Virus record (IMG/VR): IMGVR_UViG_3300025536_000011
Reading direction: 5' to 3' (one strand)
Length of the DNA stretch: 64,000 nt
Source: a virus
A program made the position numbers and the translations under genes. Shown here in pieces: positions 11,678 through 49,659 of the stretch. Position 1 is the first letter of the stretch. Each line of letters begins with the position of its first letter. The notes below the pieces were generated by a model, which saw nothing but the letters and a program-made list of their open reading frames with translations, was not told where the DNA came from and ran no database searches.

Positions 11678-11944
11678 ATGCAGATTGAATCAGCTTGGAC
11701 TTACAAGTTAAATATGATTTTAAGCAAAGAACATTTAAAATACGACAAGCACACTAACTATGTAGAAGATTTAGATAAAAGGTCTATTTTTGGCAGCGTT
11801 TATATAGCTCAGGTACATCGTCGCTGGCGTAAAATAGTTATTACGATTTTGGAAGATCATAGTTATTATGGGTCAAAATTCCAAGCCTTGGACAATGAAA
11901 TAGAGCAGACTCTTAAGAGACCTGTAACTTTAAGGCTCGCTTGA
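11678..11944 (+). CDS. hypothetical protein
   Basis: GGAGG upstream. Confidence 0.55.
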   Translation: MQIESAWTYKLNMILSKEHLKYDKHTNYVEDLDKRSIFGSVYIAQVHRRWRKIVITILEDHSYYGSKFQALDNEIEQTLKRPVTLRLA

Positions 11945-11957
11945 GCCGGAGGATCAA

Positions 11958-13178
11958 ATGAATATCATAGACACTATCAAACAGCTTCTCGCCGAGAACC
12001 AATTTGCTAGTGGCGGCGTTTTCCTTGCAGCCCTTAGCGGCGTGCTGCTTTATTTGCGACGGGTGCCGCAATTTATTTGGCAGCAACTTCGAAGATTGTT
12101 CTTGCTTGAAATAGAAGTATATGATTCGGACCCGGCATTCCATGATATTTATCTTTGGCTGATTAAAAATAAGTATGGAGCTAAAACTAAAAAGATATGG
12201 TTGACTAGCTCTAATAGGATTACTGATAAAATTGATAAATCGGGTTGGGACGAGCTATGGTCTACACGGACGGTTCCCGGTATCGGGCGGCATTTTGTAT
12301 GGTTCAAGCATCGCCTGATGTATATTAATATTTTCAAGAGAGATCTTACCGCTGGCGAGGATACGATTGGCATTCGCCGACACTTTGTTATACAGATACC
12401 CTTTGGTTCCCGCAAAATACTTGATTGCTTCCTCCGAGAAATAGAAACTCTCAGAGCAAAAGATCAAAACCTATATATTAAGGTGCCCGACTCTTACTTT
12501 GGTGGCTGGAATGATATGGTGCATCGTAATATACGCAAGTTATCATATTTAGTCTATCAAGATAGCCTAATAGAGCAAATTATTGCAGATATAGATAAAT
12601 TTAAAAGTTCTGCCGAATGGTATGCTAATCGTGGCATTCCTTATAAAAGAGGATATTTATTGCATGGCCCACCGGGTAATGGTAAAACCAGTCTAGTCTC
12701 TGCTATCGCCGGGCACTATCGCTATAACATATATACTATTAACCTGGCGGCTAAAGACTTATCTGATGATAAGTTAATGGGTTTAATGGCATGTGTACCA
12801 AGCAACAGTATAGTCCTTTTCGAAGATATCGACTGTTTACTAGCAAACAGAGAAGTAAAAAATAAGAATGATGGATTAACCTTTAAAGGATTGCTTAATG
12901 CAATAGATGGCATAGTCTCATTATATGGAGTGTTACTTTTTGTAACAACTAATCATGCTGATACTTTAGATCCAGCATTAGTAAGAGCCGGAAGGCTCGA
13001 CAAGCACTATCTTGTCGGCAATGCCGACAAGGAGCAGATTATGCGGCTTTGTAAAGTCTGGAATCCTAATTGGGATGATTTAAAGGTAGCCGCATTTACA
13101 GAGGCACAACCGGAAGGTTGTAGTATGGCTTATATACAGGAACAACTTATTGTGGCAGAGCCACAGGAGAAAATATGA
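11958..13178 (+). CDS. BCS1-like AAA+ ATPase with N-terminal membrane anchor
   Basis: TM segment; WYANRGIPYKRGYLLHGPPGNGKTS; LFEDID; LLNAIDG; TTNH..LDPALVRAGRLD. Confidence 0.85.
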   Translation: MNIIDTIKQLLAENQFASGGVFLAALSGVLLYLRRVPQFIWQQLRRLFLLEIEVYDSDPAFHDIYLWLIKNKYGAKTKKIWLTSSNRITDKIDKSGWDELWSTRTVPGIGRHFVWFKHRLMYINIFKRDLTAGEDTIGIRRHFVIQIPFGSRKILDCFLREIETLRAKDQNLYIKVPDSYFGGWNDMVHRNIRKLSYLVYQDSLIEQIIADIDKFKSSAEWYANRGIPYKRGYLLHGPPGNGKTSLVSAIAGHYRYNIYTINLAAKDLSDDKLMGLMACVPSNSIVLFEDIDCLLANREVKNKNDGLTFKGLLNAIDGIVSLYGVLLFVTTNHADTLDPALVRAGRLDKHYLVGNADKEQIMRLCKVWNPNWDDLKVAAFTEAQPEGCSMAYIQEQLIVAEPQEKI

Positions 13179-13573
13179 GACTCTACGCAGTTAGTAGCGG
13201 TAGTTACGATGAATATGGCATAGACGCTATTTTTCTTACTAGGCAAGATGCAGAAGCTTATATTTTAAATCAGTTTAGAGATGATTTTCTGTGTTATGAA
13301 ACTCCACGCATAGAGGAATGGGAAACTGGAGTTGCTGTCTCTGATAGAAAGCCATACATCGTTTCGCTTAAGAGAAACGGTGATCTTATTAGTATAAAAG
13401 AAACTACTGTACTTGCAATAGAAGATATTAATCCTATAGAAAGAGAATATCCCGATAATGGAAGTGATCGTCCGACAAGCTTCTCTTTTATTGTGGCGGC
13501 TCGCGATGAGGCTCATGCGATTAAAATAGCGGGCGAATATAGAGCATTAGCTATTGCTATTGAATATCCATGA
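13175..13573 (+). CDS. hypothetical protein
   Basis: ATGA coupling, GGAG upstream. Confidence 0.6.
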   Translation: MRLYAVSSGSYDEYGIDAIFLTRQDAEAYILNQFRDDFLCYETPRIEEWETGVAVSDRKPYIVSLKRNGDLISIKETTVLAIEDINPIEREYPDNGSDRPTSFSFIVAARDEAHAIKIAGEYRALAIAIEYP

Positions 13574-13685
13574 TTCGCAGAATAATAGCACGACTTTTTA
13601 GATTTAATGCTAAGCATTGTTGGGCTCGGGGACTCGCCCATTCTTGGACAACTATTACATGGCAACATCCGTTTGTGACAAATAA

Positions 13686-13919
13686 GTGTATGCGTTGCAA
13701 GCAATTGCATACATGGTTTATACAGCCTTGAAATTATCCGAGTTTATTGATCAGCGATATAAAGATCTTGGCAATTCAATCAATATAGCTCGGATGGCAG
13801 AATGCATTGAACATAATCAGGTGCTCTTAGAGGACGCCGAGACAGGCAAAAGGATTTCTCAGGGAGACGAATTAAACATAATACTATGGGCAGCAGCATT
13901 CTGGTTATGTGTAGAATGA
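13686..13919 (+). CDS. hypothetical protein
   Basis: ORF; start uncertain. Confidence 0.4.
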   Translation: MYALQAIAYMVYTALKLSEFIDQRYKDLGNSINIARMAECIEHNQVLLEDAETGKRISQGDELNIILWAAAFWLCVE

Positions 13920-14016
13920 AATTCCTACCTCTTATCATGTTCCTGGCAAAAAATGTATTAAATGTGCTAAAGAAATACCAGGGTATTTTGAGGAGCCATA
14001 GACTCAAAAGAATGCT

Positions 14017-14219
14017 TACTGGCGGGAGCCGCCAGTAGGAGTCCCTTGCTGCTTTGCAGCAAAATAACCCCCTGGCCTGCCATTTTGGCAGTCTGGAAAC
14101 TGGTGAGCCTGACTTATAATCCCCGTCCCCGGCCCCGGACCAAAGGTCCGGAGCGAGTTATGAAAAAACCCCACGTGGGCTTGAGTTTACACTCAAGCCC
14201 GTGGGCCGCACGGGCTTGC
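14017..14219. terminator. hairpin cluster at the convergent junction of plus and minus gene blocks
   Basis: stems 14017-14037, 14046-14062, 14077-14091, 14135-14151 and two overlapping stems at about 14178-14219. Confidence 0.55.
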
Positions 14220-14229
14220 GTCTAACTCC

Positions 14230-14547
14230 TTACTTCGAAAGAGCGAACGTCGAATCGCATTCGTCGCACGAATCGCTGTCGTCGTCGGGCATCGTCGCCC
14301 CGCACGCATGGCACACAGTCTCGTTACTCTCAAGGGCCATTTCCGCCTCGACTAGTGAAGAGTAGGGGCCGTTCCATTCGGAACAATCGAGGTATCCATC
14401 GGCCGACAGTCGATAGAACGTGCCCGTAGCGTAGCCCGAGACGCCGTCACAGTCTCGGACATCACACGGGAACATGTAGACGCTGCCCTCGGGAGTCTCG
14501 ACTACAGCCATGCGGCCCGTGTAGTATTTCGGCGTCATGAATGTCAT
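14230..14547 (-). CDS. small protein with C-terminal zinc ribbon
   Basis: CHACG..CDEC; GGAGCGA upstream. Confidence 0.65.
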   Translation of the reverse strand: MTFMTPKYYTGRMAVVETPEGSVYMFPCDVRDCDGVSGYATGTFYRLSADGYLDCSEWNGPYSSLVEAEMALESNETVCHACGATMPDDDSDSCDECDSTFALSK

Positions 14548-14605
14548 TTCTCGCTCCGTTCGATTCGGGCCGGATCATTCCGGCCGTGCTATCTACTTCG
14601 GAATA

Positions 14606-14634
14606 ATGATATCACGGGCTTGAACGGGCGTCCA
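14606..14634 (-). promoter_or_regulatory. promoter of the repeated family (degenerate -35)
   Basis: TGGACG-17-TATCAT with TG extension. Confidence 0.55.
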
Positions 14635-14663
14635 CTAGGACGCCCGTTCTTCTCATTTTGAGA

Positions 14664-14861: not shown

Positions 14862-14933
14862 GATTTTCGCTCCGTTGCGGGCCGCACTATTGCGGCCCGA
14901 CAAAGAGTATATCGGCACGTTTCCCGAAAAGCT

Positions 14934-15200: not shown

Positions 15201-15201
15201 G

Positions 15202-15968: not shown

Positions 15969-15976
15969 ATAATTCT

Positions 15977-16295: not shown

Positions 16296-16296
16296 A

Positions 16297-18884: not shown

Positions 18885-18901
18885 TTGCTTCTCCGAAGCA
18901 A

Positions 18902-19923: not shown

Positions 19924-20607
19924 GCCCGCGTGAACAAATCCCGTATTATCTTTCTTAGCACGGGCTTTCGGAGAAAGCCCGACGATACAAGGGCTTAAGT
20001 CCAAAAATCTTAGATCGTGGATATCGCCGTCTATAACGGCATAGCCGTTAAACCATTTAGGAATATCGTCTCGAAAGACGATAGCAACGTTAAACCCACG
20101 CTCAAGAGCCGCTTTGCATTCCAGCCAATTATTTTCGCTTGCCGAAAACGTCAAGTGATAATTAGTGGGCAAAGTATAGCCCGACTTGAGCCTATGCGAA
20201 AGCTTTGTATAGTCGTAGAATTGCAGTGTCGGGAATTCGGCAAAAATTTCCGGCATACGCTTTTCCCATACGATATCAGAAGTGCCGTTTAGCCTGATAG
20301 CGGGAATTAAACCTTGCCGCTTAGCGGCCCGCACAAGAGCCGCTAAATCGTTTCTAAGCAACGTTCGGAATTCTTCCGGCTTCTGGTACAAAAGCCGGGT
20401 TTTCCTCACGCGGGCCGCTTGCACGGGCCGATATTTCCCATATCCCGAGGTATTCAGGCAAGCGGCCCGACATCCGGCCGACGATTTTGGGCAGACGTTT
20501 CGCCCGCTCAAGCTTGCCGGTGCTAAGTGTAGGATAGCATTTAAATAGCCGAATGCCTTAGCCTTTTCTATCTTATGATTATCCAAAGTGATAAGGGCAA
20601 AGCCCAT
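19912..20607 (-). CDS. GP88-like phage protein (Cys-cluster, radical-SAM-like)
   Basis: VCPKSSAGCRAACLN..RLNGTSDI..FYDYTK..DGDIHDLRFLD. Confidence 0.7.
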   Translation of the reverse strand: MGFALITLDNHKIEKAKAFGYLNAILHLAPASLSGRNVCPKSSAGCRAACLNTSGYGKYRPVQAARVRKTRLLYQKPEEFRTLLRNDLAALVRAAKRQGLIPAIRLNGTSDIVWEKRMPEIFAEFPTLQFYDYTKLSHRLKSGYTLPTNYHLTFSASENNWLECKAALERGFNVAIVFRDDIPKWFNGYAVIDGDIHDLRFLDLSPCIVGLSPKARAKKDNTGFVHAGLTS

Positions 20608-25343: not shown

Positions 25344-25419
25344 TGGTGAGCCGCCCCGGCTTTGCTCCGGGCACCTAAAAGTTAAGAGCTTTTTGCTCTA
25401 CTGAATGAGCTAGCGGCCC
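25344..25419 (-). tRNA. tRNA-Lys(CUU) with atypical D and T loops
   Basis: GGGCCGC/GCGGCTC acceptor; AAAAG-CTCTTAA-CTTTT; T loop AGCAAAG; encoded CCA. Confidence 0.85.
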
Positions 25420-27057: not shown

Positions 27058-27276
27058 TCAACCTTTCTGCTTTGGCGTAGCCAAAGCAAGCGAATTATAG
27101 CCATTTAAAACATATTCTTCTGTCCATGTTGCTCCGCAACATGTGCAACTACAGTCACGACAAATTACTTCATCGAAAGTTTCTGCTGCATCGGCGTCGA
27201 TGCAGTCTTTCTTTTTACAGGAAGGACAAGTAAAGCCGCGTAAAGCGGCATATTCGCTGTCACTTAAAGGACGCAT
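27058..27276 (-). CDS. zinc-ribbon protein
   Basis: CPSC..CSCTCCG.TW.E.Y. Confidence 0.65.
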   Translation of the reverse strand: MRPLSDSEYAALRGFTCPSCKKKDCIDADAAETFDEVICRDCSCTCCGATWTEEYVLNGYNSLALATPKQKG

Positions 27277-27476: not shown

Positions 27477-27490
27477 GTTGCCTCCGGCAA

Positions 27491-27766
27491 CTAAAATGGC
27501 TCATCATCCCAATCTTCTGGATAATAAGAAGGATCATAAATTAAATCTTCGCTATCAAAATATGGATCTTCATAATCATAATCATCATAATCATCATAGC
27601 TATCTTCATTAGAGATAGCCTCTTCCTCCCACTCACAAATACTGTCCAGAATTTGCGTTAGAGGTAATGACGGGTTTCCGTCAGTATAATCAGCAATCAA
27701 ATATAACATACTGGCATCAGTGATGCCATAGTCAGTTTGGATTTGTCGAATTCTATGAATTAGCAT
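27491..27766 (-). CDS. small protein with highly acidic C-terminal tail
   Basis: D/E/Y-rich tail; N-terminus similar to 27753-27923. Confidence 0.6.
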   Translation of the reverse strand: MLIHRIRQIQTDYGITDASMLYLIADYTDGNPSLPLTQILDSICEWEEEAISNEDSYDDYDDYDYEDPYFDSEDLIYDPSYYPEDWDDEPF

Positions 27767-27923
27767 CTTCGGAATCCTCCTCAGATTTTACAGCAACATC
27801 CAGCACTTGATTAAACTCTTGGACCAATCCCTTGAATTCTAAGAATTCACAGAAAGTAGCAATAATAGTGGCATCGTCAATATCGAAACTCTCTTGAATT
27901 TCACGAATGCGTGCCCAAAGCAT
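27753..27923 (-). CDS. small acidic protein
   Basis: ATG 27923 after GGA-triloop RBS hairpin. Confidence 0.6.
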   Translation of the reverse strand: MLWARIREIQESFDIDDATIIATFCEFLEFKGLVQEFNQVLDVAVKSEEDSEDANS

Positions 27924-28093
27924 TATTTGCCCTCCGGGCAATCCATCCTATCATTATAACCTTGCTGATAAGGGGCTAACATTTTTCGGTCATTATATTC
28001 TTCATACTTAACTCTATCGCCATACTTTTTAATGTATTGCTCAGCGTCACGACGACCGGCCGCATATTGTTCGGCCCATTCTTTGGGTGTCAT
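27923..28093 (-). CDS. hypothetical protein (QYAAG..PYQQGY motif)
   Basis: ATG 28093 after GGA-triloop RBS hairpin. Confidence 0.6.
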   Translation of the reverse strand: MTPKEWAEQYAAGRRDAEQYIKKYGDRVKYEEYNDRKMLAPYQQGYNDRMDCPEGK

Positions 28094-28221
28094 TTGCTTC
28101 TCCGAAGCAATTAATTTTAATGGTCGGGTGACAGGGAATCGGACCCTGATGAATTTCACGGGATTTTATAAGAATCCTGGGCGTCCACCGCCCACTCACC
28201 CGTAGCGATCAAGACACATAT

Positions 28222-29586: not shown

Positions 29587-30206
29587 TAGTATGCCTCTCC
29601 ATAAATATACATGTCGCTAAAATCACCTTCGGAAGTCCAATCGACACGGCGATTCCCACATTCGCAGCGACGACTTAACCCGTCCCATCCTTTACAGGGA
29701 CCATCACAATTTTGACCATTAAAACTATGCCACTTTTCATCTTTAGTGGCTGCTGCTTTTAATTCTTCAAATTTGACTTCGCGGGCATCATAGAAGGCTG
29801 ACTCGCTAGTAAAATCTTGTCCAAATTTCTTACCGCGTTCCAGTAGGAACGCGATAGCCTCGTCACGCACTTTAATAGCCGCACTATTAGCATTCTTTGT
29901 TTGTTCTGCGAGTAAGACCTTTTTACGAGCATCTTCAATTCGCCTAGTAAGTTCTTCAAATTCGATACGGTATGGACACCACGGAGCCCCGGCCTTACTT
30001 AAATATCTATATTCTTTGGAAGTATTGCCCCAAATTTCGTTGGCCAGCAATACTAGGCTCTTATACTTGTTCGCCAATTCGTGGCGAACTTGCTTATTAT
30101 GGGCGTTTACGCTCTCGTAAAGCGTCTTTAGATCATTTAATTGCTCAGGAGTGATTTTAAGCAATTCTCCGTCAGAAATATATGGGACACCTTTGTAATT
30201 ACTCAT
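29586..30206 (-). CDS. hypothetical protein with C-terminal Cys cluster
   Basis: CDGPCKGWDGLSRRCECGNRRV; ATG 30206 in a GGA-triloop hairpin. Confidence 0.7.
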   Translation of the reverse strand: MSNYKGVPYISDGELLKITPEQLNDLKTLYESVNAHNKQVRHELANKYKSLVLLANEIWGNTSKEYRYLSKAGAPWCPYRIEFEELTRRIEDARKKVLLAEQTKNANSAAIKVRDEAIAFLLERGKKFGQDFTSESAFYDAREVKFEELKAAATKDEKWHSFNGQNCDGPCKGWDGLSRRCECGNRRVDWTSEGDFSDMYIYGEAY

Positions 30207-30207
30207 T

Positions 30208-30432
30208 TTACTCCGTAAAATTAAAACATCCGTCCACTTCAAGGTCAATTAATGCCTGACGCAGCATATCAGAATCCAAATTCTGTACAAAAGCAACAGA
30301 CGCAGCGATTTGACATGCTTTAGGCAGATGAATTTGATTGCCAATAATTCCAGTGGCTAATTCTAGACCAGGAGCTATTCGCTTAATTTCAGCAAGTAAG
30401 TTTTCACGGGAGTAACGATATTTTTCGCTCAT
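30208..30432 (-). CDS. hypothetical protein, probably leaderless
   Basis: ATG 7 nt after -10. Confidence 0.6.
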   Translation of the reverse strand: MSEKYRYSRENLLAEIKRIAPGLELATGIIGNQIHLPKACQIAASVAFVQNLDSDMLRQALIDLEVDGCFNFTE

Positions 30433-30648: not shown

Positions 30649-31050
30649 GTGAAGATGCAGACGGAGATTCTGCCGGGAACATTTTTGATCGGAGATCAAA
30701 TGAAAATCTTAGATAAGATGGAAACCCTACAATTGCTTTGCAAGAGCAATAAAAAGTGGGGCATGTTTATTTCGTGGGTTGATTCAGGGGGAAATAGGCC
30801 AGTCTTTAGATATGACTTAAAAGACACGCTAGAGACTCCTGTTCCATATCTTTGTTATAAAAATGACGCACAAGCTATTATGGACGGCGAGGCTTATCTA
30901 TTGTTTAATGATGAGTCCGAAATGTGTAATCATTATGATCTAACAGTTGGTGACGATGGACCGACGCAGCTAAACCCATATAATGGACCCTTTAGAGTCT
31001 ATGCTATTACTTGCTCGCCTAAAGGGCAATTGATGAATGAAAACACTTGA
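30649..31050 (+). CDS. hypothetical protein
   Basis: ORF; stop within the next -35. Confidence 0.65.
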   Translation: MKMQTEILPGTFLIGDQMKILDKMETLQLLCKSNKKWGMFISWVDSGGNRPVFRYDLKDTLETPVPYLCYKNDAQAIMDGEAYLLFNDESEMCNHYDLTVGDDGPTQLNPYNGPFRVYAITCSPKGQLMNENT

Positions 31051-31382: not shown

Positions 31383-31469
31383 GGCGGTATGGAGGAATGC
31401 AGACTCGATGCCCTCAAAAGGCATTGCCCTTAATCGGGCGTTCCCGTGCAAGTCGGGATACCGCTACCA
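31383..31469 (+). tRNA. tRNA-Leu(CAA)
   Basis: ATGCC-CTCAAAA-GGCAT, long variable arm, T loop TGCAAGT, encoded CCA. Confidence 0.9.
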
Positions 31470-33884: not shown

Positions 33885-35162
33885 TTGGCACAGAGACATT
33901 TTTTAATTAGATTCTTTCAAAAGGTTAATTTTAACACCAATAAATTCTGGGATGGAACAGAATGTTGGGAATGGAAGGGATCTAATGACTATTATTATGG
34001 ACATTTTTCTTTTAATGGTCGCCAAATCAAGACTCACAGATTCTCATATCAATATTTTGTAGATGAAGATTTAAAACCATATTTAGAGGTAGGACATTTA
34101 TGTAATAATACTTTGTGTCTAAGGCCATCACATTTAAAAGCAATGACTCCTAAAGAAAACGTACATTATAGCAATACTACTGCACATTTAAATTCCTTAA
34201 AAACCCACTGTAAGCACGGTCATGAATTTACTCCAGAAAATACATATATACGTAAGGATCGCAATGGCAATAGAGAGTGTATTACGTGTCATAGAATAGC
34301 AACAGGATATTGTGGCGGTATGCTAAATAGCGAAAAAACCCACTGTATTAATGGACACGAATTTACAGAAGAGAACACATACATATATAGCAAAAGTAAT
34401 TATCGAGCATGTAAGGCGTGTTCTAAAAATCGTTATCTACAAAAGAAGAGAAAAATGCAAATTTTAATTTTGGGAGACACGCACGGAAAGTATGATTTGG
34501 AGCATTTAATTATACAAAAAGTTATTAATAAAAATTCCAATATAAAAGCTATATTTCATTGCGGTGACTGGGGATATGCGTGGCCAACAAAATATGGTCC
34601 TGCTATTTGGGAGTATCCATTTAAAATACCATTCCATGTTACTTTAGGCAATCATGATCCATACTCATTCTATCAAACAGCAAAATTACCAGATTGGCTT
34701 CATATACAGGAACGTGGCAGTACATTAAATATTCATGGTAAAAAGATACTTTGGTGCGGTGGGGCATTTTCAATTGACCGTGCCTATCGTATCTTAAATC
34801 AAAGCTATTGGCTCGAAGAAACCATTAAACAGTCTGATCTTGATAAGTGCTTGGCTCAAGAAGGGCCAATTGATTTATTAGTAACTCACGAAACAGCAGA
34901 GTATTACCCTTTAAAAGCCAAGAGGCCGGAATTTACAGAAGGTAGATCGGATCGAATTGCTGTGCAAACAATAATAGATAAATTTAAACCTAAGTATCAT
35001 ACGTTTGGCCACTGGCATTCTCCTGATAATGGAGATTATATCCATCAAGATGGTAGTATAACTAAATGGGCCTGTATCCCCGAAGTAGATTCTGGGCACT
35101 TTGCCGTGTGGGATGGAGAGAATTTAGAGCTAAGCTGGCTTGACACGACCGGAAGGCCGTGA
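33885..35162 (+). CDS. HNH endonuclease fused in frame to a calcineurin-like metallophosphoesterase
   Basis: ECWEW..HRFSY..GHLCNN..C.RP.HL, two KTHC..GHEFT.ENTY repeats; from M at 34455 GDTHG, GDWG, GNHD, THE, GHWH. Confidence 0.85.
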   Translation: MAQRHFLIRFFQKVNFNTNKFWDGTECWEWKGSNDYYYGHFSFNGRQIKTHRFSYQYFVDEDLKPYLEVGHLCNNTLCLRPSHLKAMTPKENVHYSNTTAHLNSLKTHCKHGHEFTPENTYIRKDRNGNRECITCHRIATGYCGGMLNSEKTHCINGHEFTEENTYIYSKSNYRACKACSKNRYLQKKRKMQILILGDTHGKYDLEHLIIQKVINKNSNIKAIFHCGDWGYAWPTKYGPAIWEYPFKIPFHVTLGNHDPYSFYQTAKLPDWLHIQERGSTLNIHGKKILWCGGAFSIDRAYRILNQSYWLEETIKQSDLDKCLAQEGPIDLLVTHETAEYYPLKAKRPEFTEGRSDRIAVQTIIDKFKPKYHTFGHWHSPDNGDYIHQDGSITKWACIPEVDSGHFAVWDGENLELSWLDTTGRP

Positions 35163-36575: not shown

Positions 36576-36590
36576 TTGCCCGGAGGGCAA

Positions 36591-39006: not shown

Positions 39007-39297
39007 ATGGTCATTATATTCCCATCCGGCTATGGGCTTTATAGGATATGCACTAAATCTCAAGGCTGGCTTGGCCCGATACGGGCCAATAATATGCGGT
39101 GGCTTTACGCTACAGAAATTAATGGCACTAGAGATGTTGTGATTTTAAGGCAGACGAACCCCTGGACCAAACATGCCAAAGCATGTGGGGATTTCAGTAA
39201 GACTTACTTTGATCTAATGTTAGATGAACGAGTAATTTGGACGTGTGACTACTCTGACATGTTATGTTATATTTCGAGGGACGAAAATGCAGGATAA
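39007..39297 (+). CDS. hypothetical protein
   Basis: ORF in run. Confidence 0.45.
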   Translation: MVIIFPSGYGLYRICTKSQGWLGPIRANNMRWLYATEINGTRDVVILRQTNPWTKHAKACGDFSKTYFDLMLDERVIWTCDYSDMLCYISRDENAG

Positions 39298-39790
39298 AGA
39301 CATATTTCTTCTAGCTATAGAGCATCATGCAATTATGCAACTAGCTGGTAGATTTATGTCTAAGATCAATACTAAATCAGGTATATTCGGAGAAAATGGA
39401 GATTACCCAACAGAATGCTGGATTTGGACTGATACGCCTAATACAGATGGTTATGGAGTTTTTAGTATTGATAATAAAAATACTGGAGCCCATAGGATTG
39501 CATATAAGGTATTTAATGGTCCATTGATAGACGGTTATGAAATAGATCATTTATGTCGTAGACGAGATTGTGTATGTCCAGATCATTTAGAACAAATCAC
39601 AGGTCCAGAAAACGTAAGGCGTGGCAAATCTGGAGAATATAATAGAATAAAAACGCATTGTCACAAAGGACATGAGTTTACAACAGAAAATACTTACGTC
39701 TATATTAGAGACGGACTAATAGAAAGGCAATGTAGAACATGCAAAAGAGAGACGCAAATTGCATATAGGAAAAGAAAACATGAATTATAG
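39245..39790 (+). CDS. HNH homing endonuclease, paralog of the 33885 N-terminus
   Basis: ECWIW..GYG..AHRIAY..IDHLCRRRDCV.PDHLE..EN; KTHCHKGHEFT.ENTY. Confidence 0.85.
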   Translation: MTTLTCYVIFRGTKMQDKDIFLLAIEHHAIMQLAGRFMSKINTKSGIFGENGDYPTECWIWTDTPNTDGYGVFSIDNKNTGAHRIAYKVFNGPLIDGYEIDHLCRRRDCVCPDHLEQITGPENVRRGKSGEYNRIKTHCHKGHEFTTENTYVYIRDGLIERQCRTCKRETQIAYRKRKHEL

Positions 39791-40415
39791 TATAATAATG
39801 GCTCTGATACAAAAAGCGGATAAGCCGTCCGATGTTTTTCTGCACAATTCTTTTGTAATAGAAATTCCAGAATTATATACGTTGCAAGGAATCCCTCAAC
39901 CAGCAAAATATCACCCCGAGGGGGACGCATTCGTTCATACTTTACAAGTAATAGATAGAGCCAAAGAATTAGGAGGCAATGATATAACTATATTCTCATG
40001 TTTACTACACGATCTTGGCAAAGCTTTGACTCCAAAAGAAGAATGGCCGCACGCCTATAATCACGAGTCCTTGGGCTTGCCAATAGCTGCAAAGATTTGC
40101 GAGCGTCTGAATGTTCCAATAGAACATCGTGACTTTGTACTTAATGTTGTTGCTGAACATGGAAATGCTCATCGGTTCCTTGAAATGAGACCCACCACAC
40201 GAGTTAAGTTCTTGAAAAGAATATGGCTATGCAATCTATACGATTTTACTCTGGCTTGCAAGGCTGATTCGCAGGGCAGAGGCGAAGAAAACTGGTTGCG
40301 GGAATACCCGCAAAGTGAAGCCATTATGGATGCGGCTCGCCGCATCGGTAAAATAGAAATAGCTGGCAAAAGCCACGAAAAGTGGCTACAGGAGGCAGCA
40401 AAAGCAATATCGTGA
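39780..40415 (+). CDS. stand-alone HD phosphohydrolase resembling the HD domain of multifunctional CCA enzyme
   Basis: PQPAKYHPEGDAFVHTLQV..LLHDLGKA.TP..HE..CKADSQGR. Confidence 0.8.
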   Translation: MNYSIIMALIQKADKPSDVFLHNSFVIEIPELYTLQGIPQPAKYHPEGDAFVHTLQVIDRAKELGGNDITIFSCLLHDLGKALTPKEEWPHAYNHESLGLPIAAKICERLNVPIEHRDFVLNVVAEHGNAHRFLEMRPTTRVKFLKRIWLCNLYDFTLACKADSQGRGEENWLREYPQSEAIMDAARRIGKIEIAGKSHEKWLQEAAKAIS

Positions 40416-42323: not shown

Positions 42324-42341
42324 TATGAACCGGAGGTTCAA

Positions 42342-42570: not shown

Positions 42571-43050
42571 ATGGACCTCAAAAGTATTCAACGTACTATT
42601 TTGGACCAAATTAAACCAGTAGAATGTAAGGTTTTCTGGTACGATAATGCGATTAATTTTATAGATAATCCAGACTGGAAACACCTATCATATTATTGTA
42701 GTGCATATCATCCAGCATCAAGATCAGCTTATATCCGTAGACTAAAATCCAAATTACATGAGAATTACTTTCTATTGCATGAAATATGCCATGATTTAAC
42801 CTGGGACGGGCCTCAAGAAGAAGTAGAATATAGAGCCGAGAAAAAACTCAGAGAAATCTCTAAAGAACACGGATGGCACGAGTTTATAGATATATCAAGA
42901 ATGAATTTCTTTTACTTTATTCCTAAATTCTTGTGGGTCGATGGAGTAGAACCAAAGATGACTCATAGAACATTAAATAGCTTAGACGAGCGAGTAGACA
43001 TAGCAATAGAAAAGTTAGGAGAAGAAGATAATGAGTACGCATCTTATTGA
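42571..43050 (+). CDS. HExxH-containing protein (zincin-like)
   Basis: LLHEICH..EVEYRAE. Confidence 0.5.
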   Translation: MDLKSIQRTILDQIKPVECKVFWYDNAINFIDNPDWKHLSYYCSAYHPASRSAYIRRLKSKLHENYFLLHEICHDLTWDGPQEEVEYRAEKKLREISKEHGWHEFIDISRMNFFYFIPKFLWVDGVEPKMTHRTLNSLDERVDIAIEKLGEEDNEYASY

Positions 43051-44014
43051 GATAGTGCCCGTGGCACTTGAGCCGCATCCAAATGCCGATTCTCTTTCTA
43101 TTGTGAGAATTTACGGTTATATTATTGTCGCACGCACCGAGGATTGGCTTGGGATTACAAAAGGAATATACATACCGCCAGATTTCCTGGTTAAGACCAG
43201 TCGTCCAGAATTCACATTTTTAGATGATGGAAAAGGCACTGGCACTGTCCGTATTAAAACGAAAAAGCTTCGTGGCATTATAAGCCAAGGATTGCTGATC
43301 CCTGTACCAGAATCATTAAAAGAACTGCCGTTAGGCAGCAATGTCATCACAGAACTTGAAATAGAAAGATATGAGCCTCCTATACCATTAAGCACGGGCG
43401 GCGAGACCATGCCAGCACCGTCAGGCTCGCCACCATGCTATGACATAGAGTCCTATGAGCGATACTGTGGAGGGCTTATTCACGGTGAAGAAATTGTTGC
43501 CACGGAAAAAATTCATGGAGCCAATGCTCGCTTTGTATTTGATGGCGAATTAATGTTCTGTGGTAGCAGAGTAGAATGGAAACGCGAAAGTGACGGAAAT
43601 CTATGGTGGCAATGCTTGCGGCAGAATGCCGCAATAGAAGAATTTTGTCGAGCAAACCCTAACTGCGTAGTTTATGGTGAAGTATTCGGTAAAGTCCAAT
43701 CGTTTACTTACGGAGCTAAGCCAGGAGAAGTTAGATTTGCAGCATTTGATATTTTGGACCTTAAAAATAATAAATGGCTAGATTACGATGCGGCTAAAGC
43801 CGCAGCGAATAAACTTCCTTGGGTTCCAGAGCTATATAGAGGCCCATTAATTGATGCAGAAATCCGCAAATATGCATCTGGCCGCTCCATAGTGGAGCGT
43901 GCCGATAATATCCGTGAAGGATGCGTGATTCGTCCAATTAAAGAACGCTACGACGAGTCCTGTGGACGAGTTGTACTTAAGATAGTTTCTCCAGAATACT
44001 TAGAAAAGAGTTAA
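43031..44014 (+). CDS. RNA ligase, DRB0094-like family
   Basis: HPNADSL..IPPD..LRGIISQGL..TEKIHGAN..YGEVFG..REG.V..LKIVSPEYL. Confidence 0.88.
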   Translation: MSTHLIEIVPVALEPHPNADSLSIVRIYGYIIVARTEDWLGITKGIYIPPDFLVKTSRPEFTFLDDGKGTGTVRIKTKKLRGIISQGLLIPVPESLKELPLGSNVITELEIERYEPPIPLSTGGETMPAPSGSPPCYDIESYERYCGGLIHGEEIVATEKIHGANARFVFDGELMFCGSRVEWKRESDGNLWWQCLRQNAAIEEFCRANPNCVVYGEVFGKVQSFTYGAKPGEVRFAAFDILDLKNNKWLDYDAAKAAANKLPWVPELYRGPLIDAEIRKYASGRSIVERADNIREGCVIRPIKERYDESCGRVVLKIVSPEYLEKS

Positions 44015-46687: not shown

Positions 46688-46786
46688 CTATCGTTTCTCA
46701 AAATTCGGCACAATGACTGTACGTAAAACAGGCACCTGGATCAATAAACTTTTAAAACTTGGCTCTGTCGGTGAGCGTCAGCGAAC

Positions 46787-47140
46787 ATGAAGCCCTATAT
46801 CCACGCCAAATCATCAGCACGCCGTTATGGTGGTAAGCCCGAGGATTATCTTGCAATACATGATTTTATGGACTCGACTAAGGCAAGTATGCCTGATGTT
46901 AGACATAGAGCTATCCTACATACAGCCTTCGGCTGCTTTTTAGTCGAGAAAGTGTTTGGCACAGTCGCTATTAATAGCGACAACAAGGAATATAGCCCGC
47001 GAGATATCGCGGAGGATCACTGTATTGAAGATATGGGCACTATTCCCACTATGGAACGCTTTTTAAGCCTCATGCCTATTGAGGCATGGATGGGGCGACC
47101 CAATACAAAAAAGACATTTATACCACTCGAACAAGACTAA
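46787..47140 (+). CDS. DUF6915-like phage protein
   Basis: HAKSSARRYGG.PEDYLAIHDFMDSTK..HRAILH..IAEDH..ED.G. Confidence 0.7.
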   Translation: MKPYIHAKSSARRYGGKPEDYLAIHDFMDSTKASMPDVRHRAILHTAFGCFLVEKVFGTVAINSDNKEYSPRDIAEDHCIEDMGTIPTMERFLSLMPIEAWMGRPNTKKTFIPLEQD

Positions 47141-47156
47141 ACGAAAGGACTGAGTA

Positions 47157-47618
47157 ATGAGCGATAACGCACTAGACCGTCTAACAAGTCTTACTGATGA
47201 ATTGTCAAGTTTACGAGCTAAGGCTGCGACAGAAGGCAAGACTCTACTTAAAGACGCTGCCAAAACAATATTTAGTAATCACCCAAGTCTCCAATATATT
47301 ACTTGGAATCAGGGTGTTCCATCGTGGCGAGACGGCGACCCATGCACCTTTGAAATTCATGATATTTGGGGGCGTGTTGGTGATTGGCCAAAAAATAAAG
47401 ACGGTGACGAAATCTGGCCGAGCGAGCTAGGCGGATATAATGGCGAAGAATTTCATAATGTTGACGGATGTAAGGATCTCGCTCTGATAGATGCATTTGA
47501 AGCTTTCTGTAAGGCTGTCGTGAATCTCGGCGATCTATTAGCTGAGATTCTTGAACAGGATTGCACGGTCTTTATTACTAAAGGTGGTATCGAAACTGAA
47601 TATTACGAGATGAATTGA
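47157..47618 (+). CDS. hypothetical phage protein
   Basis: ITW.QG.PSW.DGDPC.F. Confidence 0.7.
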   Translation: MSDNALDRLTSLTDELSSLRAKAATEGKTLLKDAAKTIFSNHPSLQYITWNQGVPSWRDGDPCTFEIHDIWGRVGDWPKNKDGDEIWPSELGGYNGEEFHNVDGCKDLALIDAFEAFCKAVVNLGDLLAEILEQDCTVFITKGGIETEYYEMN

Positions 47619-47643
47619 TCGCTGGATTGGCCAGCGATAATTA

Positions 47644-48054
47644 ATGATTGATGTTTTACGGAGAAAACAAACAATGCGTAATTGGCTTACAACCGGGATT
47701 GTACTAGCTTCGCTGGCAATTGGTGGCGTTTTTGCGGTCGGTCGTCTTTCGCCGGCTTTTGCGGGCGAAAACGATCACAGTCGAGACGGCGAGATTATGT
47801 TCGTAGATGTTGATACAAATGAGCGAATTCCAAGCTGCCGTCTGCACGGGGCCCAAATTTATCGGCTTGTAAAATCAGATCATATTCAGGTCTTTACGCC
47901 CGATGGCGAGAAACTTTGTAAGTACCGTGTTGAGGATGTAACTTTTACTGCCACGCAGTATTCGAGGCCGGTCGGCGGCTCTTTATTCTGTTGGGGGCCT
48001 CCTGTTAGAGCTACACATGTTCGGATGGTTGTGAGCGTTAAGACAGTCGATTGA
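47644..48054 (+). CDS. exported or membrane-anchored protein
   Basis: N-terminal hydrophobic segment; start probably 47674. Confidence 0.6.
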   Translation: MIDVLRRKQTMRNWLTTGIVLASLAIGGVFAVGRLSPAFAGENDHSRDGEIMFVDVDTNERIPSCRLHGAQIYRLVKSDHIQVFTPDGEKLCKYRVEDVTFTATQYSRPVGGSLFCWGPPVRATHVRMVVSVKTVD

Positions 48055-48118
48055 GCGGCATAGCCGTTCATGTTGGTTAAGCGGTCAGGGTGGCCACCCG
48101 GCCGCTTTAATTTTTAGC

Positions 48119-48147
48119 TTGACACGACCGCTAGGCTGTGGTAAAGT
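48119..48147 (+). promoter_or_regulatory. promoter of the RNA/tRNA cluster
   Basis: TTGACA-17-TAAAGT with TG extension. Confidence 0.7.
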
Positions 48148-48151
48148 ATAG

Positions 48152-48350
48152 GTGAAGTGACTGGCGTGGCCGGACAGCGGCCAATAGTATCTTGCCGAGA
48201 GCCGCTTGGGGTTCGTGGGCATTAAAAGTAAAGCTACCAAGATATGTCGGTGACATCTGGATTTAGTTTAACGGAAGAACGCCGCCCATGAGGTTGGAAA
48301 TGTGGGTTCGAATCCCGCAACGCCAGATTAGACCGATACAGTCACTTCAC
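48152..48350 (+). ncRNA. candidate 199-nt structured RNA with an embedded tRNA-like domain
   Basis: 12-bp closing helix; D arm and canonical T arm at 48257-48326; degenerate anticodon arm, no CCA. Confidence 0.6.
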
Positions 48351-48360
48351 AATTTTAAAT

Positions 48361-48436
48361 GGCCCATTCGTCTAGTGATCTAGGATTCCGCCCTTTCAAG
48401 GCGGCGACCGGGATTTGAATTCCCGATGGGCTACCA
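48361..48436 (+). tRNA. tRNA-Glu(UUC)
   Basis: CCGCC-CTTTCAA-GGCGG; encoded CCA. Confidence 0.9.
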
Positions 48437-48469
48437 TTTTGCAAACTGAATATAGGAATTAGAACATGA

Positions 48470-48545
48470 GCGGGTTTAATGTTTAATGGTAGCATTTCTG
48501 GCTTCCAACCAGACCGTAGGAGTTCGAATCTCCTAACCCGTTCCA
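48470..48545 (+). tRNA. tRNA-Gly(UCC)
   Basis: TCTGG-CTTCCAA-CCAGA; U73; encoded CCA. Confidence 0.92.
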
Positions 48546-48642
48546 TTTTTTACTATCGTAACCTTCGCAACAATGGCCAATCAAGGCTCTCGTCATTTAA
48601 ATGGGCAATTAAAGCCTGTATACATATAGGAGCAAAGCGACT

Positions 48643-49227
48643 ATGAAATTTAAGCTTCGCTGGCTTTGGGCCGCTCATTATCAACAAGAAGTCCCCCAAT
48701 GGACTCGTGATTTTTGTAATTGGGGACCGCGTAAGTGGCTTCGATTTCGGCGTTGGGATATCCAGCGATTCTTTTGGGATTATTTTTATTTGCTGCTCTT
48801 TAAGGGCTACAAAAGCAAAGACATGTGGGGCGTGGATCATGCCATGTTTGCCTGGGTTTTACCTCGATTAAAGGCATTTAAAGCCTTGAATCGAGAGAAA
48901 TATCCCGGCTGGTGTGAGAATGAAGATAACTATGCTCATAGATGGGAACGCAAAGGCGAGTGTACTCTTGAAGCCACGGGTAAATGCACCATTTGTAAAT
49001 TTGATGAACAGCGTGCTGTTCAGAAATGGGAGGGTATTCTTGACGATATGATATTCGCCATTCAAAGTTATGTTGATGGTCATTGGGATGGCCCCGCATT
49101 TGGTGGATATTCTATCGGATTCTGGTATCCTGAAAAGAGTAAATGGATTAGTGGTACTCCCGAACATAAGAGAGCCGAACGCGGCTACGAGTTATTTTGT
49201 AGACATATTTTTTCACTGTGGGATTAG
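48643..49227 (+). CDS. hypothetical phage protein
   Basis: D.W..DH.....LPRLKAFK..W..ILD.MIFA. Confidence 0.7.
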   Translation: MKFKLRWLWAAHYQQEVPQWTRDFCNWGPRKWLRFRRWDIQRFFWDYFYLLLFKGYKSKDMWGVDHAMFAWVLPRLKAFKALNREKYPGWCENEDNYAHRWERKGECTLEATGKCTICKFDEQRAVQKWEGILDDMIFAIQSYVDGHWDGPAFGGYSIGFWYPEKSKWISGTPEHKRAERGYELFCRHIFSLWD

Positions 49228-49243
49228 CCCGGAGGGCTAAAAA

Positions 49244-49486
49244 ATGCTAATTGAAAATGAGCAACAAAAAAAAGCGATAGGTGATGCGGCTATTGCCCTT
49301 TTAAATTCTATGACAATAACAGGCGTTCCTTCGGCTCACTTAACATTTAAATGCAACGACGGAACCAAGTTAATGATTTTAATTGCACACGACGAAGAGG
49401 CTGATTATATTAAGGATCTTTTGGCAGACGCAGACGATATCAAACTGAGTTATAAAGTTGGAGAAGATAATAATGGGTCTAACTAA
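49244..49486 (+). CDS. hypothetical protein
   Basis: GGA-triloop RBS hairpin upstream. Confidence 0.6.
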   Translation: MLIENEQQKKAIGDAAIALLNSMTITGVPSAHLTFKCNDGTKLMILIAHDEEADYIKDLLADADDIKLSYKVGEDNNGSN

Positions 49487-49643
49487 CGAAGAAGTAAAAG
49501 ACGAAATCGAGAATGACGAAATCGGTTATGTCGTACTTAACCTATTAAATCCAAGGGACATTAACGATCCGAGGCTAGCCGAATTAGTGGCTAAGGCTGC
49601 TAAAGCCTTAAATGATATCGAATCTTATTTAGGTATCGAATAA
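49473..49643 (+). CDS. hypothetical protein
   Basis: ATG 49473, GGAG upstream. Confidence 0.55.
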   Translation: MGLTNEEVKDEIENDEIGYVVLNLLNPRDINDPRLAELVAKAAKALNDIESYLGIE

Positions 49644-49659
49644 TCGGAGGTTATGGGAA

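What the first reader, a model, noticed from the sequence alone, without database searches (positions are those of the whole stretch)
11941..49655. RBS hairpins with an invariant GGA triloop at gene junctions
Seen: the GGAG of the Shine-Dalgarno is placed as a GGA loop closed by a 6-7 bp stem whose 3' arm abuts or nearly abuts the ATG: TTGCTTC-GGA-GAAGCAA (18885 and 28094), GTTGCC-GGA-GGCAAC (27477), TTGCCC-GGA-GGGCAA (27927 and 36576), TTTTAC-GGA-GTAAAA (30206), TGAACC-GGA-GGTTCA (42326), TTAGCCC-GGA-GGGCTAA (49224), plus imperfect copies at 11941 and 49641. Six different perfect stems share the same loop. In 9 of 10 cases the upstream stop codon lies in or immediately beside the hairpin. Known: RBS-sequestering hairpins mediate translational coupling, and T4 RegB cleaves GGAG in ribosome-binding sites. 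Inference: a genome-wide coupling device, or the target of a phage RNA-binding protein or nuclease that reads GGA triloops.
Basis: partly seen in the sequence, partly recalled or inferred. Interest (0 to 1): 0.75.

Follow-up and report, generated by a model that had tools for sequence, protein, structure and literature searches.

The report
Ribosome-site hairpins in phage early genes
An uncultured 177-kb phage puts the ribosome-binding GGAG of about ten unrelated early genes at the tip of a small RNA hairpin that ends exactly at the start codon. This is a real, non-random design that most likely gates translation, but its mode of action is untested.

Summary
Nine perfect hairpins have a 6-7 bp stem and a GGA triloop closed by C-G. 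Their 3' arm fills the spacer between the Shine-Dalgarno sequence and the ATG.

Of 187 GGA sites in front of genes, 9 have perfect stems of 6 bp or more. Permutation gives 0.14, with a maximum of 2 in 2000. Six of seven stem positions covary.

The device is not genome-wide. All copies lie in the third of the genome that is rich in sigma70-type promoters (9/91 genes against 0/177, p=5e-5). They sit inside operons, in front of unrelated genes. The upstream stop codon sits at the foot of the hairpin far more often than at other junctions (6/10 against 5%).

Best reading (about 0.5): a compact cis-acting gate on translation, opened by the ribosome that terminates upstream. Two copies have no certain upstream ORF, and the stems are only moderately stable.

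Main rival (about 0.25): a tag on early genes read by an unidentified nuclease or repressor. The geometry equals the published optimum for T4 RegB. However, no RegB, RelE/ParE, YoeB, RegA or CsrA homologue is found in the phage.

No close relatives and no RNA data exist. This scan has noted similar hairpins at ribosome-binding sites on other DNA.

The parts
49224..49240 (+). h1: TTAGCCC-GGA-GGGCTAA, then AAA and ATG 49244 (80-aa ORFan). The upstream stop TAG 49225-49227 lies inside the 5' arm.
   Evidence: -8.5 kcal/mol; kept in the MFE fold in context
42326..42340 (+). h2: TGAACC-GGA-GGTTCA, then A and ATG 42342 (75 aa). The DNA ligase stop TAA 42321-42323 lies 2 nt before the stem.
36576..36590 (+). 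h3: TTGCCC-GGA-GGGCAA, abutting ATG 36591 (394-aa MoxR-like ATPase). The upstream stop TAA 36573-36575 abuts the 5' arm.
30684..30700 (+). h4 (new): TTTGATC-GGA-GATCAAA. Its last A is the A of ATG 30700 (116 aa). It lies about 100 nt after promoter 30555. The only possible upstream translation is from an in-frame ATG at 30655.
   Evidence: a competing fold is predicted in context
30205..30221 (-). h5: ATTTTAC-GGA-GTAAAAT, overlapping ATG 30206 (206 aa). The upstream 74-aa ORF reads through the hairpin and stops at TAA 30210-30208.
   Evidence: (weak, -1.4 to -2.5 kcal/mol)
28094..28110 (-). h6: TTGCTTC-GGA-GAAGCAA, abutting ATG 28093 (56 aa). It lies 10 nt after the CCA end of an ARAGORN-called tRNA-Ile(UAU) at 28121-28202. 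There is no upstream ORF.
   Evidence: z = -2.3
27927..27941 (-). h7: TTGCCC-GGA-GGGCAA, then ATA and ATG 27923 (56 aa). The upstream 56-aa ORF reads through and its stop overlaps the start (TAATG).
   Evidence: a competing fold with codons 2-4 is predicted
27477..27491 (-). h8: GTTGCC-GGA-GGCAAC, abutting ATG 27476 (64 aa). The last base of the upstream stop TAG is the first base of the stem.
18885..18901 (-). h9: TTGCTTC-GGA-GAAGCAA, abutting ATG 18884 (96 aa). The upstream stop TGA 18904-18902 abuts the 5' arm. The 17-mer is identical to h6, but the flanks and the genes are unrelated.
11941..11957 (+). h10, imperfect: TTGAGCC-GGA-GGATCAA, abutting ATG 11958 (BCS1-like AAA ATPase, 406 aa). 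The upstream stop TGA 11942-11944 lies in the 5' arm.
   Evidence: -1.7 kcal/mol
49640..49654 (+). h11, weak: ATAATC-GGA-GGTTAT (with G-U pairs), then GGGAA and ATG 49660 (115 aa). The upstream stop TAA 49641-49643 lies in the 5' arm.
   Evidence: -0.3 kcal/mol
27125..27143 (-). Copy inside an ORF: CATGTTGC-GGA-GCAACATG (8 bp), within the Cys-rich 72-aa ORF 27276..27058. The ATG in the stem opens only a 10-codon frame, so this is not a ribosome-binding site for a real gene.
47652..47669 (+). Variant: TGTTTT(ACGGAG)AAAACA, with the SD in a six-base loop, 4 nt before ATG 47674.

Best explanation
The hairpins are compact cis-acting gates on translation in the phage's early polycistronic mRNAs.

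The 3' arm is the SD-to-AUG spacer plus the last G (or GG) of the GGAG(G) Shine-Dalgarno sequence. The 5' arm is its complement, and GGA is left as a triloop. A folded hairpin cannot pair GGAG(G) with 16S rRNA or lie in the 30S mRNA channel, so it must melt before initiation.

At most sites the upstream cistron ends at the foot of the hairpin or runs through it. A terminating ribosome therefore holds the 5' arm unwound and hands the freed SD and AUG, 13-18 nt downstream, to the same or a new 30S subunit. This is coupling by RNA unfolding or by reinitiation.

Where no upstream ORF exists (h6, perhaps h4), the same hairpin simply lowers or buffers initiation.

Shown here: the structure, its non-randomness, its placement relative to stop and start codons, and its restriction to the early region. 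Inferred: that it forms in vivo, that it lowers independent initiation, and that upstream translation relieves it.

The uniform C(GGA)G tip follows from the SD sequence together with the smallest possible loop.
For: - Enrichment: 9 observed against 0.14 expected, with a bimodal stem-length distribution.
- Six of seven stem pairs covary among copies in front of unrelated genes.
- Every copy ends -2..+3 nt from an ATG, with the SD at normal spacing.
- Only 13 of 243 same-strand junctions have 13-18-nt spacers, and 7 of those are these hairpins.
- The stop codon lies within -4..+3 nt of the hairpin foot at 6/10 hairpin junctions, against 5% of 135 other junctions (p=3e-6). Two more upstream ORFs read through the hairpin.
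- The hairpin is part of the MFE fold in 7 of 9 local contexts.
- The hairpins lie inside operons, 102-3421 nt after the nearest sigma70-type -10 box. A transcript starting inside the hairpin is therefore not the release mechanism.
- The RNA-unfolding and reinitiation models of coupling, with structure around the downstream ribosome-binding site, are established (review PMC12548453).
Against: - h6 follows a tRNA-like gene and h4 lies in a leader. Coupling cannot be the whole story.
- Stabilities are modest and uneven: -1.4 to -8.5 kcal/mol.
- Opening-energy ranks run from 8 to 215 of 268 genes, and context z-scores run from -2.3 to +0.4.
- Nothing in a pure coupling model explains why late operons have none (0/177 genes).
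- Nothing in that model explains why only this one geometry is used. No anti-SD CTCC pairing occurs anywhere.
- The review notes that structure just after the upstream stop lowered coupling in one library screen.
- The stop-at-foot pattern could also arise from avoiding a palindrome inside coding sequence in a compact genome.
- There is no comparative or expression evidence.
Confidence: 0.5

Rival explanations
1. The C(GGA)G hairpin is a tag on early genes that is read in trans. The reader could be a phage or host endoribonuclease that cuts within the exposed GGA, as a functional analogue of T4 RegB. It could instead be an RNA-binding repressor that clamps the hairpin. Either would switch these early messages off later in infection.
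For: - The geometry equals the published optimum for factor-independent RegB cleavage: GGA unpaired and the fourth G constrained (PMC3014915, section 10, citing Lebars 2001).
- The copies are restricted to the region driven by host-type promoters (9/91 against 0/177 genes, p=5e-5). RegB likewise targets early messages.
- One fixed geometry is used despite very different stabilities.
- Copies exist where no upstream ORF is present (h6, h4).
- Early ribosome-binding sites in general prefer C before GGAG: 23/41 against 10/55, p=2e-4. Without the hairpin genes the figure is 13/31, p=0.02.
Against: - No RegB (PF10715), ParE/RelE (PF05016), YoeB (PF06769), RegA (PF01818) or CsrA (PF02599) is found in the phage, even at E up to 1 for three of them.
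- The genome is probably complete, because a second assembly is a circular permutation of it.
- Precomputed Pfam hits list no RNase or RNA-binding domain in the early region.
- The review also says that secondary structure generally protects against RegB.
- Matches to the RegB 3' consensus RAYARAA are only 3-5 of 7.
- For CsrA, the ACA / A-N-GGA context is absent in 8 of 9 copies. The loops are 3 nt rather than 6, and the stems are 6-7 bp rather than 4 or fewer.
- The invariant loop is already explained by the SD sequence.
Confidence: 0.25
2. The palindromes have no dedicated function in translation. The phage generally accumulates C(GNA)G-tipped palindromes, and cassette shuffling in the plastic early region has spread a few 15-17-nt modules that happen to contain a good SD sequence. 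Any role would be at the DNA level, such as cruciform extrusion or recombination joints.
For: - Triloop hairpins with stems of 6 bp or more number 149, against 44-69 in Markov-1 simulations.
- On the sense strand the two commonest loops are GAA (19, of which 12 are closed C-G) and GGA (11, of which 10 are closed C-G).
- d(GNA) loops closed by C-G are exceptionally stable in DNA (PMC3201870, PMC13037366).
- Two pairs of identical hairpins (h6=h9, h3=h7) sit in unrelated flanks.
- The early region is built from repeated promoter and hairpin cassettes.
Against: - Every one of the nine perfect copies ends at a real start codon with correct SD spacing and reads GGA on the sense strand. GGA outnumbers TCC by far once loops are oriented to the sense strand.
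- The stop-codon position is also non-random.
- Seven different stems keep the same register.
- A neutral palindrome family would not be tied to ATG in this way.
Confidence: 0.12
3. The hairpins are mRNA processing or stability elements. They would mark cistron boundaries, protecting the 3' end of the upstream segment or the 5' end of the downstream segment after endonucleolytic cleavage or tRNA excision.
For: - They lie exactly between cistrons.
- h6 would sit about 10 nt from the 5' end left by tRNA 3' processing.
- A second class of hairpins lies just 5' of the SD at other early genes.
Against: - Stems of 6-7 bp at -1.4 to -8.5 kcal/mol are weak barriers.
- Enclosing the SD is not needed for protection and would cost translation.
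- No transcript data are available.
Confidence: 0.08
4. The hairpins are DNA hairpin promoters of the phage N4 virion RNA polymerase type. Those promoters have a 5-7 bp stem and a G-R-A triloop closed by C:G.
For: The stem length, the three-base GGA loop and the C:G closing pair match the N4 vRNAP promoter hairpin. GGA loops bind that enzyme best (PMC4496689, PMC13037366).
Against: - In N4 the G-R-A loop lies on the template strand. Here GGA lies on the sense strand of the gene that follows, so such a promoter would fire antisense.
- No single-subunit RNA polymerase was found. The PF00940 search found nothing, but it rang in no control genome either, so it shows little.
- The 2772-aa ORFan has no PHROG or PDB match.
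- The region already carries about 31 host-type promoters.
Confidence: 0.03

Closest known systems
Translational coupling by RNA unfolding or reinitiation (phage f1 genes VII-IX, MS2 coat-lysis, E. coli rpmI-rplT and atpH-atpA; review PMC12548453)
   Same: [quoted passage not shown] The upstream ORF ends at the structure or runs through it. Intergenic distances are short.
   Different: - Here one stereotyped 15-17-nt module (GGA triloop, C-G closure, 3' arm equal to the SD-AUG spacer) recurs at about ten unrelated genes of one phage.
- It is confined to early operons.
- Two copies lack an upstream ORF.
- Dependence on upstream translation has not been tested.
T4 RegB endoribonuclease target sites (GG*AG in early translation initiation regions; PMC3014915; Lebars et al. 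2001)
   Same: GGAG Shine-Dalgarno sequences of early genes. The published best substrate without S1 has GGA unpaired and the fourth G constrained, which is this geometry.
   Different: - No RegB or RelE-like homologue is detectable in the phage.
- The phage is unrelated to T4.
- The RegB 3' consensus is only partly matched.
- Natural T4 sites are mostly unstructured and A-rich, and structure usually protects against RegB.
- No cleavage has been shown here.
RBS-sequestering hairpins of T4 genes e, soc, 49, I-TevI and Aeh1 mobE (PMC3014915)
   Same: Phage mRNA hairpins that hide the SD or AUG and delay or limit translation.
   Different: The T4 hairpins are relieved by late transcripts that start inside the 5' arm. 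Here the nearest recognised promoter ends 102 nt or more upstream. The T4 structures also differ from gene to gene, whereas these share one design.
CsrA/RsmA binding hairpins (SELEX consensus RUACARGGAUGU; RsmE-hcnA; PMC7652899)
   Same: GGA is presented in the loop of a short hairpin that overlaps a Shine-Dalgarno sequence.
   Different: - The conserved ACA / A-N-GGA context is missing in 8 of 9 copies.
- The loop is 3 nt rather than about 6.
- The stems are 6-7 contiguous pairs rather than 4 or fewer.
- The host and its CsrA status are unknown, and the phage has no csrA.
N4 virion RNA polymerase promoter hairpins and d(C-GNA-G) mini-hairpins (PMC4496689, PMC13037366, PMC3201870)
   Same: A 5-7 bp stem, a three-base G-R-A loop and a C:G closing pair. 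At the DNA level such palindromes extrude unusually stable hairpins.
   Different: The strand is wrong for driving the adjacent gene. No vRNAP was found. The link to the SD, the ATG and the stop codon points to an RNA-level role.

Membership tests
Translational coupling by RNA unfolding or reinitiation | Secondary structure encloses the SD and/or start codon of the downstream cistron | tested here: met
   The last 1-2 bases of the SD and the whole spacer are paired, and GGA sits in a 3-nt loop, in 9 perfect copies. The hairpin is in the MFE fold in 7/9 contexts.
Translational coupling by RNA unfolding or reinitiation | A ribosome translating or terminating the upstream ORF reaches the structure | tested here: met
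   The stop lies within -5..+1 nt of the foot at 7 junctions, and the ORF reads through at 2. Not met for h6 (tRNA-like gene upstream). Ambiguous for h4.
Translational coupling by RNA unfolding or reinitiation | Downstream translation depends on upstream translation and on the stem | not testable with these tools
   This needs reporters or ribosome profiling. No RNA run holds this phage.
Translational coupling by RNA unfolding or reinitiation | The structure is stable enough to silence independent initiation | tested here: inconclusive
   Stabilities are -1.4 to -8.5 kcal/mol, and opening-energy ranks run from 8 to 215 of 268.
T4 RegB target sites | GGAG in translation initiation regions of early genes | tested here: met
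   All copies carry GGAG and lie in the region rich in sigma70-type promoters. That these genes are early is inferred from the promoters.
T4 RegB target sites | GGA unpaired with the fourth G constrained (best substrate for RegB alone) | tested here: met
   The predicted triloop is GGA with the fourth G in the closing C-G pair. The criterion comes from PMC3014915.
T4 RegB target sites | A RegB-family nuclease encoded by the phage | tested here: not met
   PF10715, PF05016 and PF06769 find nothing in the 177-kb genome. The PF10715 search rang in no control genome, so its negative result is weak.
T4 RegB target sites | Cleavage between G and A in vivo | not testable with these tools
   No RNA data exist.
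CsrA/RsmA binding sites | GGA in a hairpin loop | tested here: met
CsrA/RsmA binding sites | Conserved ACA / A-N-GGA context, a loop of about six bases, and a short stem of 4 bp or fewer | tested here: not met
   Only h5 has A at position -2. The loops are 3 nt and the stems are 6-7 bp. The criteria come from PMC7652899.
CsrA/RsmA binding sites | CsrA present in the phage or its host | tested here: inconclusive
   The phage has no PF02599 match. The host is unknown.
N4 vRNAP hairpin promoters | A 5-7 bp stem with a 3-nt G-R-A loop closed by C:G | tested here: met
N4 vRNAP hairpin promoters | The G-R-A loop lies on the template strand of the transcribed gene | tested here: not met
   GGA lies on the sense strand at all nine perfect copies.
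N4 vRNAP hairpin promoters | A virion single-subunit RNA polymerase gene | tested here: not met
   PF00940 finds nothing, and the 2772-aa ORFan has no PHROG or PDB match. The control for PF00940 was silent, so this negative result is weak.
T4 gene e / soc / 49 / I-TevI type temporal hairpins | A promoter whose transcripts start inside the 5' arm | tested here: not met
   The nearest sigma70-type -10 box ends 102-3421 nt upstream. No shared motif is seen just upstream. Late promoters of unknown sequence cannot be excluded.

The most novel reading that the evidence does not exclude
The C(GGA)G hairpin is a private mark on early genes. An as yet unrecognised phage protein, among the many early ORFans, or a host factor would read it. 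It would be a functional analogue of T4 RegB that arose independently in an unrelated large phage, with a structured recognition element rather than a sequence-only one.
Probability: 0.2. Interest if true: 0.75.

Novelty: new variant of a known kind. Interest (0 to 1): 0.45.

Why it matters
Hairpins that hide ribosome-binding sites, and translational coupling itself, are textbook. They are usually one-off structures that differ from gene to gene.

Here one phage reuses a single minimal 15-17-nt design at about ten unrelated genes, with covarying stems. All copies lie in its early operons, and the upstream stop codon is parked at the foot of the hairpin.

This gives a natural allelic series: the same geometry with stabilities from about -1 to -8.5 kcal/mol, with and without an upstream ORF. 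Such a series could be used to separate the unfolding and reinitiation models of coupling.

The tip has the same shape as the best substrate of T4 RegB. The finding is therefore also a concrete lead to a possible new early-gene shut-off factor in a phage lineage with no cultured relatives.

If it is only a cis-acting gate, it is a tidy but modest addition to known biology.

Tried and rejected
- **Comparative analysis was not possible.**
  - The ENA and Logan contigs that carry the region are 100% identical to the window.
  - The best homologues of the h3 gene are 58% identical or less. Their loci L001 and L004 have no such hairpin.
  - The terminase finds no relative in viral contigs.
  - The ligase is 29% identical or less to any cultured phage.
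  - Megablast of 8 kb against the phage collection found nothing.
  - The 20-mer of hairpin plus ATG is absent from viral contigs.
- **Wider survey.** The pattern TTGCNNCGGAGNNGCAAATG gave 30 virome hits. Only 2 have complementary NN pairs, against 1.9 expected. The 186-kb contig G001, which holds one of them, has just that one RBS copy and is unrelated. In this frame the device is therefore not virome-wide.
- **Expression data.** No RNA holder is listed for this DNA. Laying the two DNA runs showed no variants.
- **Trans-factor search.** RegB, CsrA, ParE/RelE, YoeB, RegA and T7-like RNA polymerase families were all negative in the phage. Pfam on ten hairpin genes found only a BCS1-like AAA ATPase.
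- **Rfam** gave nothing but three tRNAs.
- **Release by an internal promoter** (as for T4 gene e) was rejected on distances.
- **Paralogy of the hairpin genes** was rejected.
- **Not attempted.** A Pfam scan of all 268 genes through one large alignment, and structure prediction of the early ORFans.

Full report
**Source.** The window is the reverse complement of bases 127-64126 of a 177,274-bp IMG/VR virus record with 41.8% G+C. Window position equals 64127 minus genome position. The record comes from a subsurface metagenome. A second assembly of 177,403 bp begins at window position 8277. It is therefore a circular permutation, and the genome is probably complete despite a CheckV estimate of 75%. 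The phage encodes a terminase, a portal protein, a tape measure protein, a family-B-type DNA polymerase, ribonucleotide reductase, DNA and RNA ligases and seven tRNA-like genes. It has no close relative in any collection I could search.

**Observation.** All ten cited sites read as described. I called 268 genes with a simple codon-usage and SD scorer and scanned the whole genome.

- Nine perfect hairpins place GGA as a triloop closed by C-G. Their stems are 6-7 bp and they end -2 to +3 nt from a called ATG.
- There are two imperfect copies (11941 and 49640).
- One 8-bp copy lies inside an ORF and precedes only a 10-codon frame.
- Two variants carry the SD in a GGAG tetraloop or an ACGGAG hexaloop.
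- One apparent copy is the anticodon stem of tRNA-Gly(UCC) read on the other strand.

**Is it more than chance?** Among 187 GGA triplets that lie 6-16 nt before starts, stem lengths are bimodal: 0-4 bp at 178 sites and 6-7 bp at 9 sites. Permuting the 5' arms among sites gives 0.14 sites of 6 bp or more, with a maximum of 2 in 2000 permutations. Only 4 of 4059 other GGA triplets reach 6 bp. On an alignment of the eleven copies, 92% of cells pair against 58% in shuffles, and six of seven pairs change on both sides. These sequences were chosen as hairpins, so the permutation test is the real control. The genes behind the hairpins are unrelated to each other, so the copies are independent placements.

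**Where the hairpins are.**

- All copies lie in genome 14.8-52 kb.
- The same third of the genome holds 31 of 35 extended -10 promoters of the form TTGAC-N-TGnTAnnnT. I take this region as early, host-polymerase-driven transcription, which is an inference.
- Nine of 91 genes there have a perfect hairpin, against 0 of 177 elsewhere (p=5e-5).
- The hairpins sit inside operons, 102-3421 nt after the nearest -10 box.
- h6, h7 and h8 lie in one operon of small ORFans.

**Junction anatomy.**

- Of 243 same-strand junctions, 129 overlap and 32 have spacers of 0-5 nt. Only 13 have spacers of 13-18 nt, and seven of those are these hairpins.
- The upstream stop ends within -4..+3 nt of the hairpin foot at 6 of 10 hairpin junctions. 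This holds at 5% of 135 other junctions and 9% of those in the early region (p=3e-6).
- At h5 and h7 the upstream ORF reads through the hairpin.
- h6 lies 10 nt after the CCA end of a tRNA-Ile(UAU)-like gene. ARAGORN calls this gene but Rfam does not.
- h4 lies about 100 nt into a leader. The only possible upstream translation there is from an in-frame ATG at 30655.

**Energetics.**

- Isolated hairpins fold at -1.4 to -8.5 kcal/mol.
- The cost of opening positions -15..+4 ranks these genes from 8th to 215th of 268.
- In 55-57-nt contexts the hairpin is in the MFE fold in 7 of 9 cases. Overall z-scores run from only -2.3 to +0.4.
- The significance therefore lies in the repeated exact geometry and not in unusual stability at any one site.

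**Why the loop is invariant.**

- GGAG is the phage's Shine-Dalgarno sequence (96 of 268 genes).
- With the SD-to-ATG spacer as the 3' arm, the fourth G must pair with a C, and GGA is the smallest loop. Most of the invariance is therefore forced.
- It is not entirely forced. No gene uses the other obvious design, an upstream CTCC paired to the SD.
- Early ribosome-binding sites in general prefer C before GGAG: 23/41 against 10/55, p=2e-4.
- The phage as a whole is rich in sense-strand C(GAA)G and C(GGA)G triloop hairpins: 149 triloop hairpins against 44-69 simulated.
- d(C-GNA-G) loops are known to be exceptionally stable (PMC3201870, PMC13037366).

**Mechanism.** The best-supported reading is a cis-acting gate on translation. 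The folded hairpin must melt before the SD can pair with 16S rRNA.

At most sites, a ribosome terminating at the foot would hold the 5' arm open. It is established knowledge that the ribosome unwinds mRNA roughly a dozen nucleotides ahead of the P site. This would favour initiation 13-18 nt downstream by unfolding or by reinitiation. Both models are reviewed in PMC12548453.

This fits 9 of 11 sites. It does not explain h6, perhaps h4, the restriction to the early region, or the single geometry.

**The rival readings.**

[quoted passage not shown] That is this shape, and RegB inactivates early messages. However, RegB, RelE/ParE, YoeB, RegA and CsrA families are all absent from the phage. Precomputed Pfam hits show no RNase in the early region. 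The same review says that structure usually protects against RegB.
- **CsrA-type binding.** The sites fail the ACA context, loop-size and stem-length criteria.
- **N4-type DNA hairpin promoters.** These share the tip but require it on the template strand. Here it lies on the sense strand, and no virion polymerase is found.
- **Release by an internal promoter, as for T4 gene e.** The promoter distances do not support this.

**Limits.** No relatives, no strain variants and no RNA data exist for this phage. A restricted virome scan for TTGC..C-GGA-G..GCAA-ATG found complementary inner pairs at the chance rate, 2 of 30. The one large contig that carries a copy has only that one copy. Earlier notes of this scan describe similar hairpins masking ribosome-binding sites on other DNA. 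I used those notes as leads only.

**Verdict.** This is a real, lineage-specific family of stereotyped SD-in-triloop hairpins. It is a new variant of a known kind of translational control. The chance that it marks an undiscovered early-gene shut-off system is not negligible.

Noticed in passing
window 5299-58387, both strands (for example 30467-, 26193-, 22346-, 16295-, 40573+): There are about 35 copies of an extended -10 promoter, TTGAC-N-TGATAnnnT. The spacer is often a small GC-rich hairpin. Of the 35 copies in the genome, 31 lie in genome 0-60 kb. Several are followed by an ATG about 7 nt after the -10 box, which suggests leaderless starts.
   Followed up: partly
whole genome; in the window for example 36791, 41360, 43626, 35700, 40533, 8509: Sense-strand C(GAA)G triloop hairpins are the commonest triloop hairpin in the genome (19 with stems of 6 bp or more, 12 closed by C-G). 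Many lie inside ORFs. In total there are 149 triloop hairpins, against 44-69 in Markov-1 simulations. This excess of GNA-tipped palindromes is unexplained.
   Followed up: partly
window RBS regions 4717-60956: Early-region ribosome-binding sites prefer C before GGAG (often AACGGAG or GCGGAGC): 23/41 against 10/55 elsewhere. AGGAG dominates in the rest of the genome.
   Followed up: partly
window 24620, 24893, 25010, 22584, 25918, 27088, 14899 (- strand): A second class of perfect 6-9 bp hairpins ends 11-19 nt before the ATG, directly 5' of the SD. They have varied loops and leave the SD free.
   Followed up: no
window 8277 (= position 1 of ENA contig k141_298297): A second assembly of 177,403 bp starts inside the IMG record. 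The two are circular permutations, so the genome is probably complete and the 75% CheckV estimate is probably too low.
   Followed up: partly
window 28121-28202(-), 25344-25419(-), 7438-7515(+), 31383-31469(+): ARAGORN calls four of the seven tRNAs, including tRNA-Ile(UAU), but Rfam does not confirm them at the gathering score. tRNA-Ile(UAU) is promoter-driven and ends in an encoded CCA, 10 nt before hairpin h6.
   Followed up: partly
window 27907-27961(-): At h7 the predicted MFE fold is a competing helix (-13.5 kcal/mol). It pairs the 5' arm and the SD with codons 2-4 (CUUUGGGC) in place of the triloop hairpin, so this one site might switch between folds.
   Followed up: no
window 19961-19981(+): A 9-bp palindrome, CGGGCTTTC-GGA-GAAAGCCCG, reads GGA on the strand antisense to the local genes (TCC on the sense strand). 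It lies just upstream of promoter 19923(-) and is not at a ribosome-binding site.
   Followed up: no
genome 94032-102350 (L016:1032-9347, outside the window): A 2772-aa ORF lies downstream of the tape measure gene and has no PHROG or PDB sequence match.
   Followed up: partly
window 33885-35162, 39245-40415, 43031-44014, 56158-57198: A set of RNA-repair-type genes lies in the early region: an HNH-metallophosphatase fusion, HNH and HD proteins, an Rnl2-like RNA ligase (PF09414) and a T4 Rnl1-like RNA ligase (PF09511). They sit alongside many phage tRNAs.
   Followed up: no
L033:8680 (- strand) and L034:8287 (+ strand; G001:18202): Two unrelated viral contigs each carry a single perfect TTGCxxC-GGA-GxxGCAA-ATG hairpin at a gene start (one directly after TAA). 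These are isolated cases and not families.
   Followed up: yes
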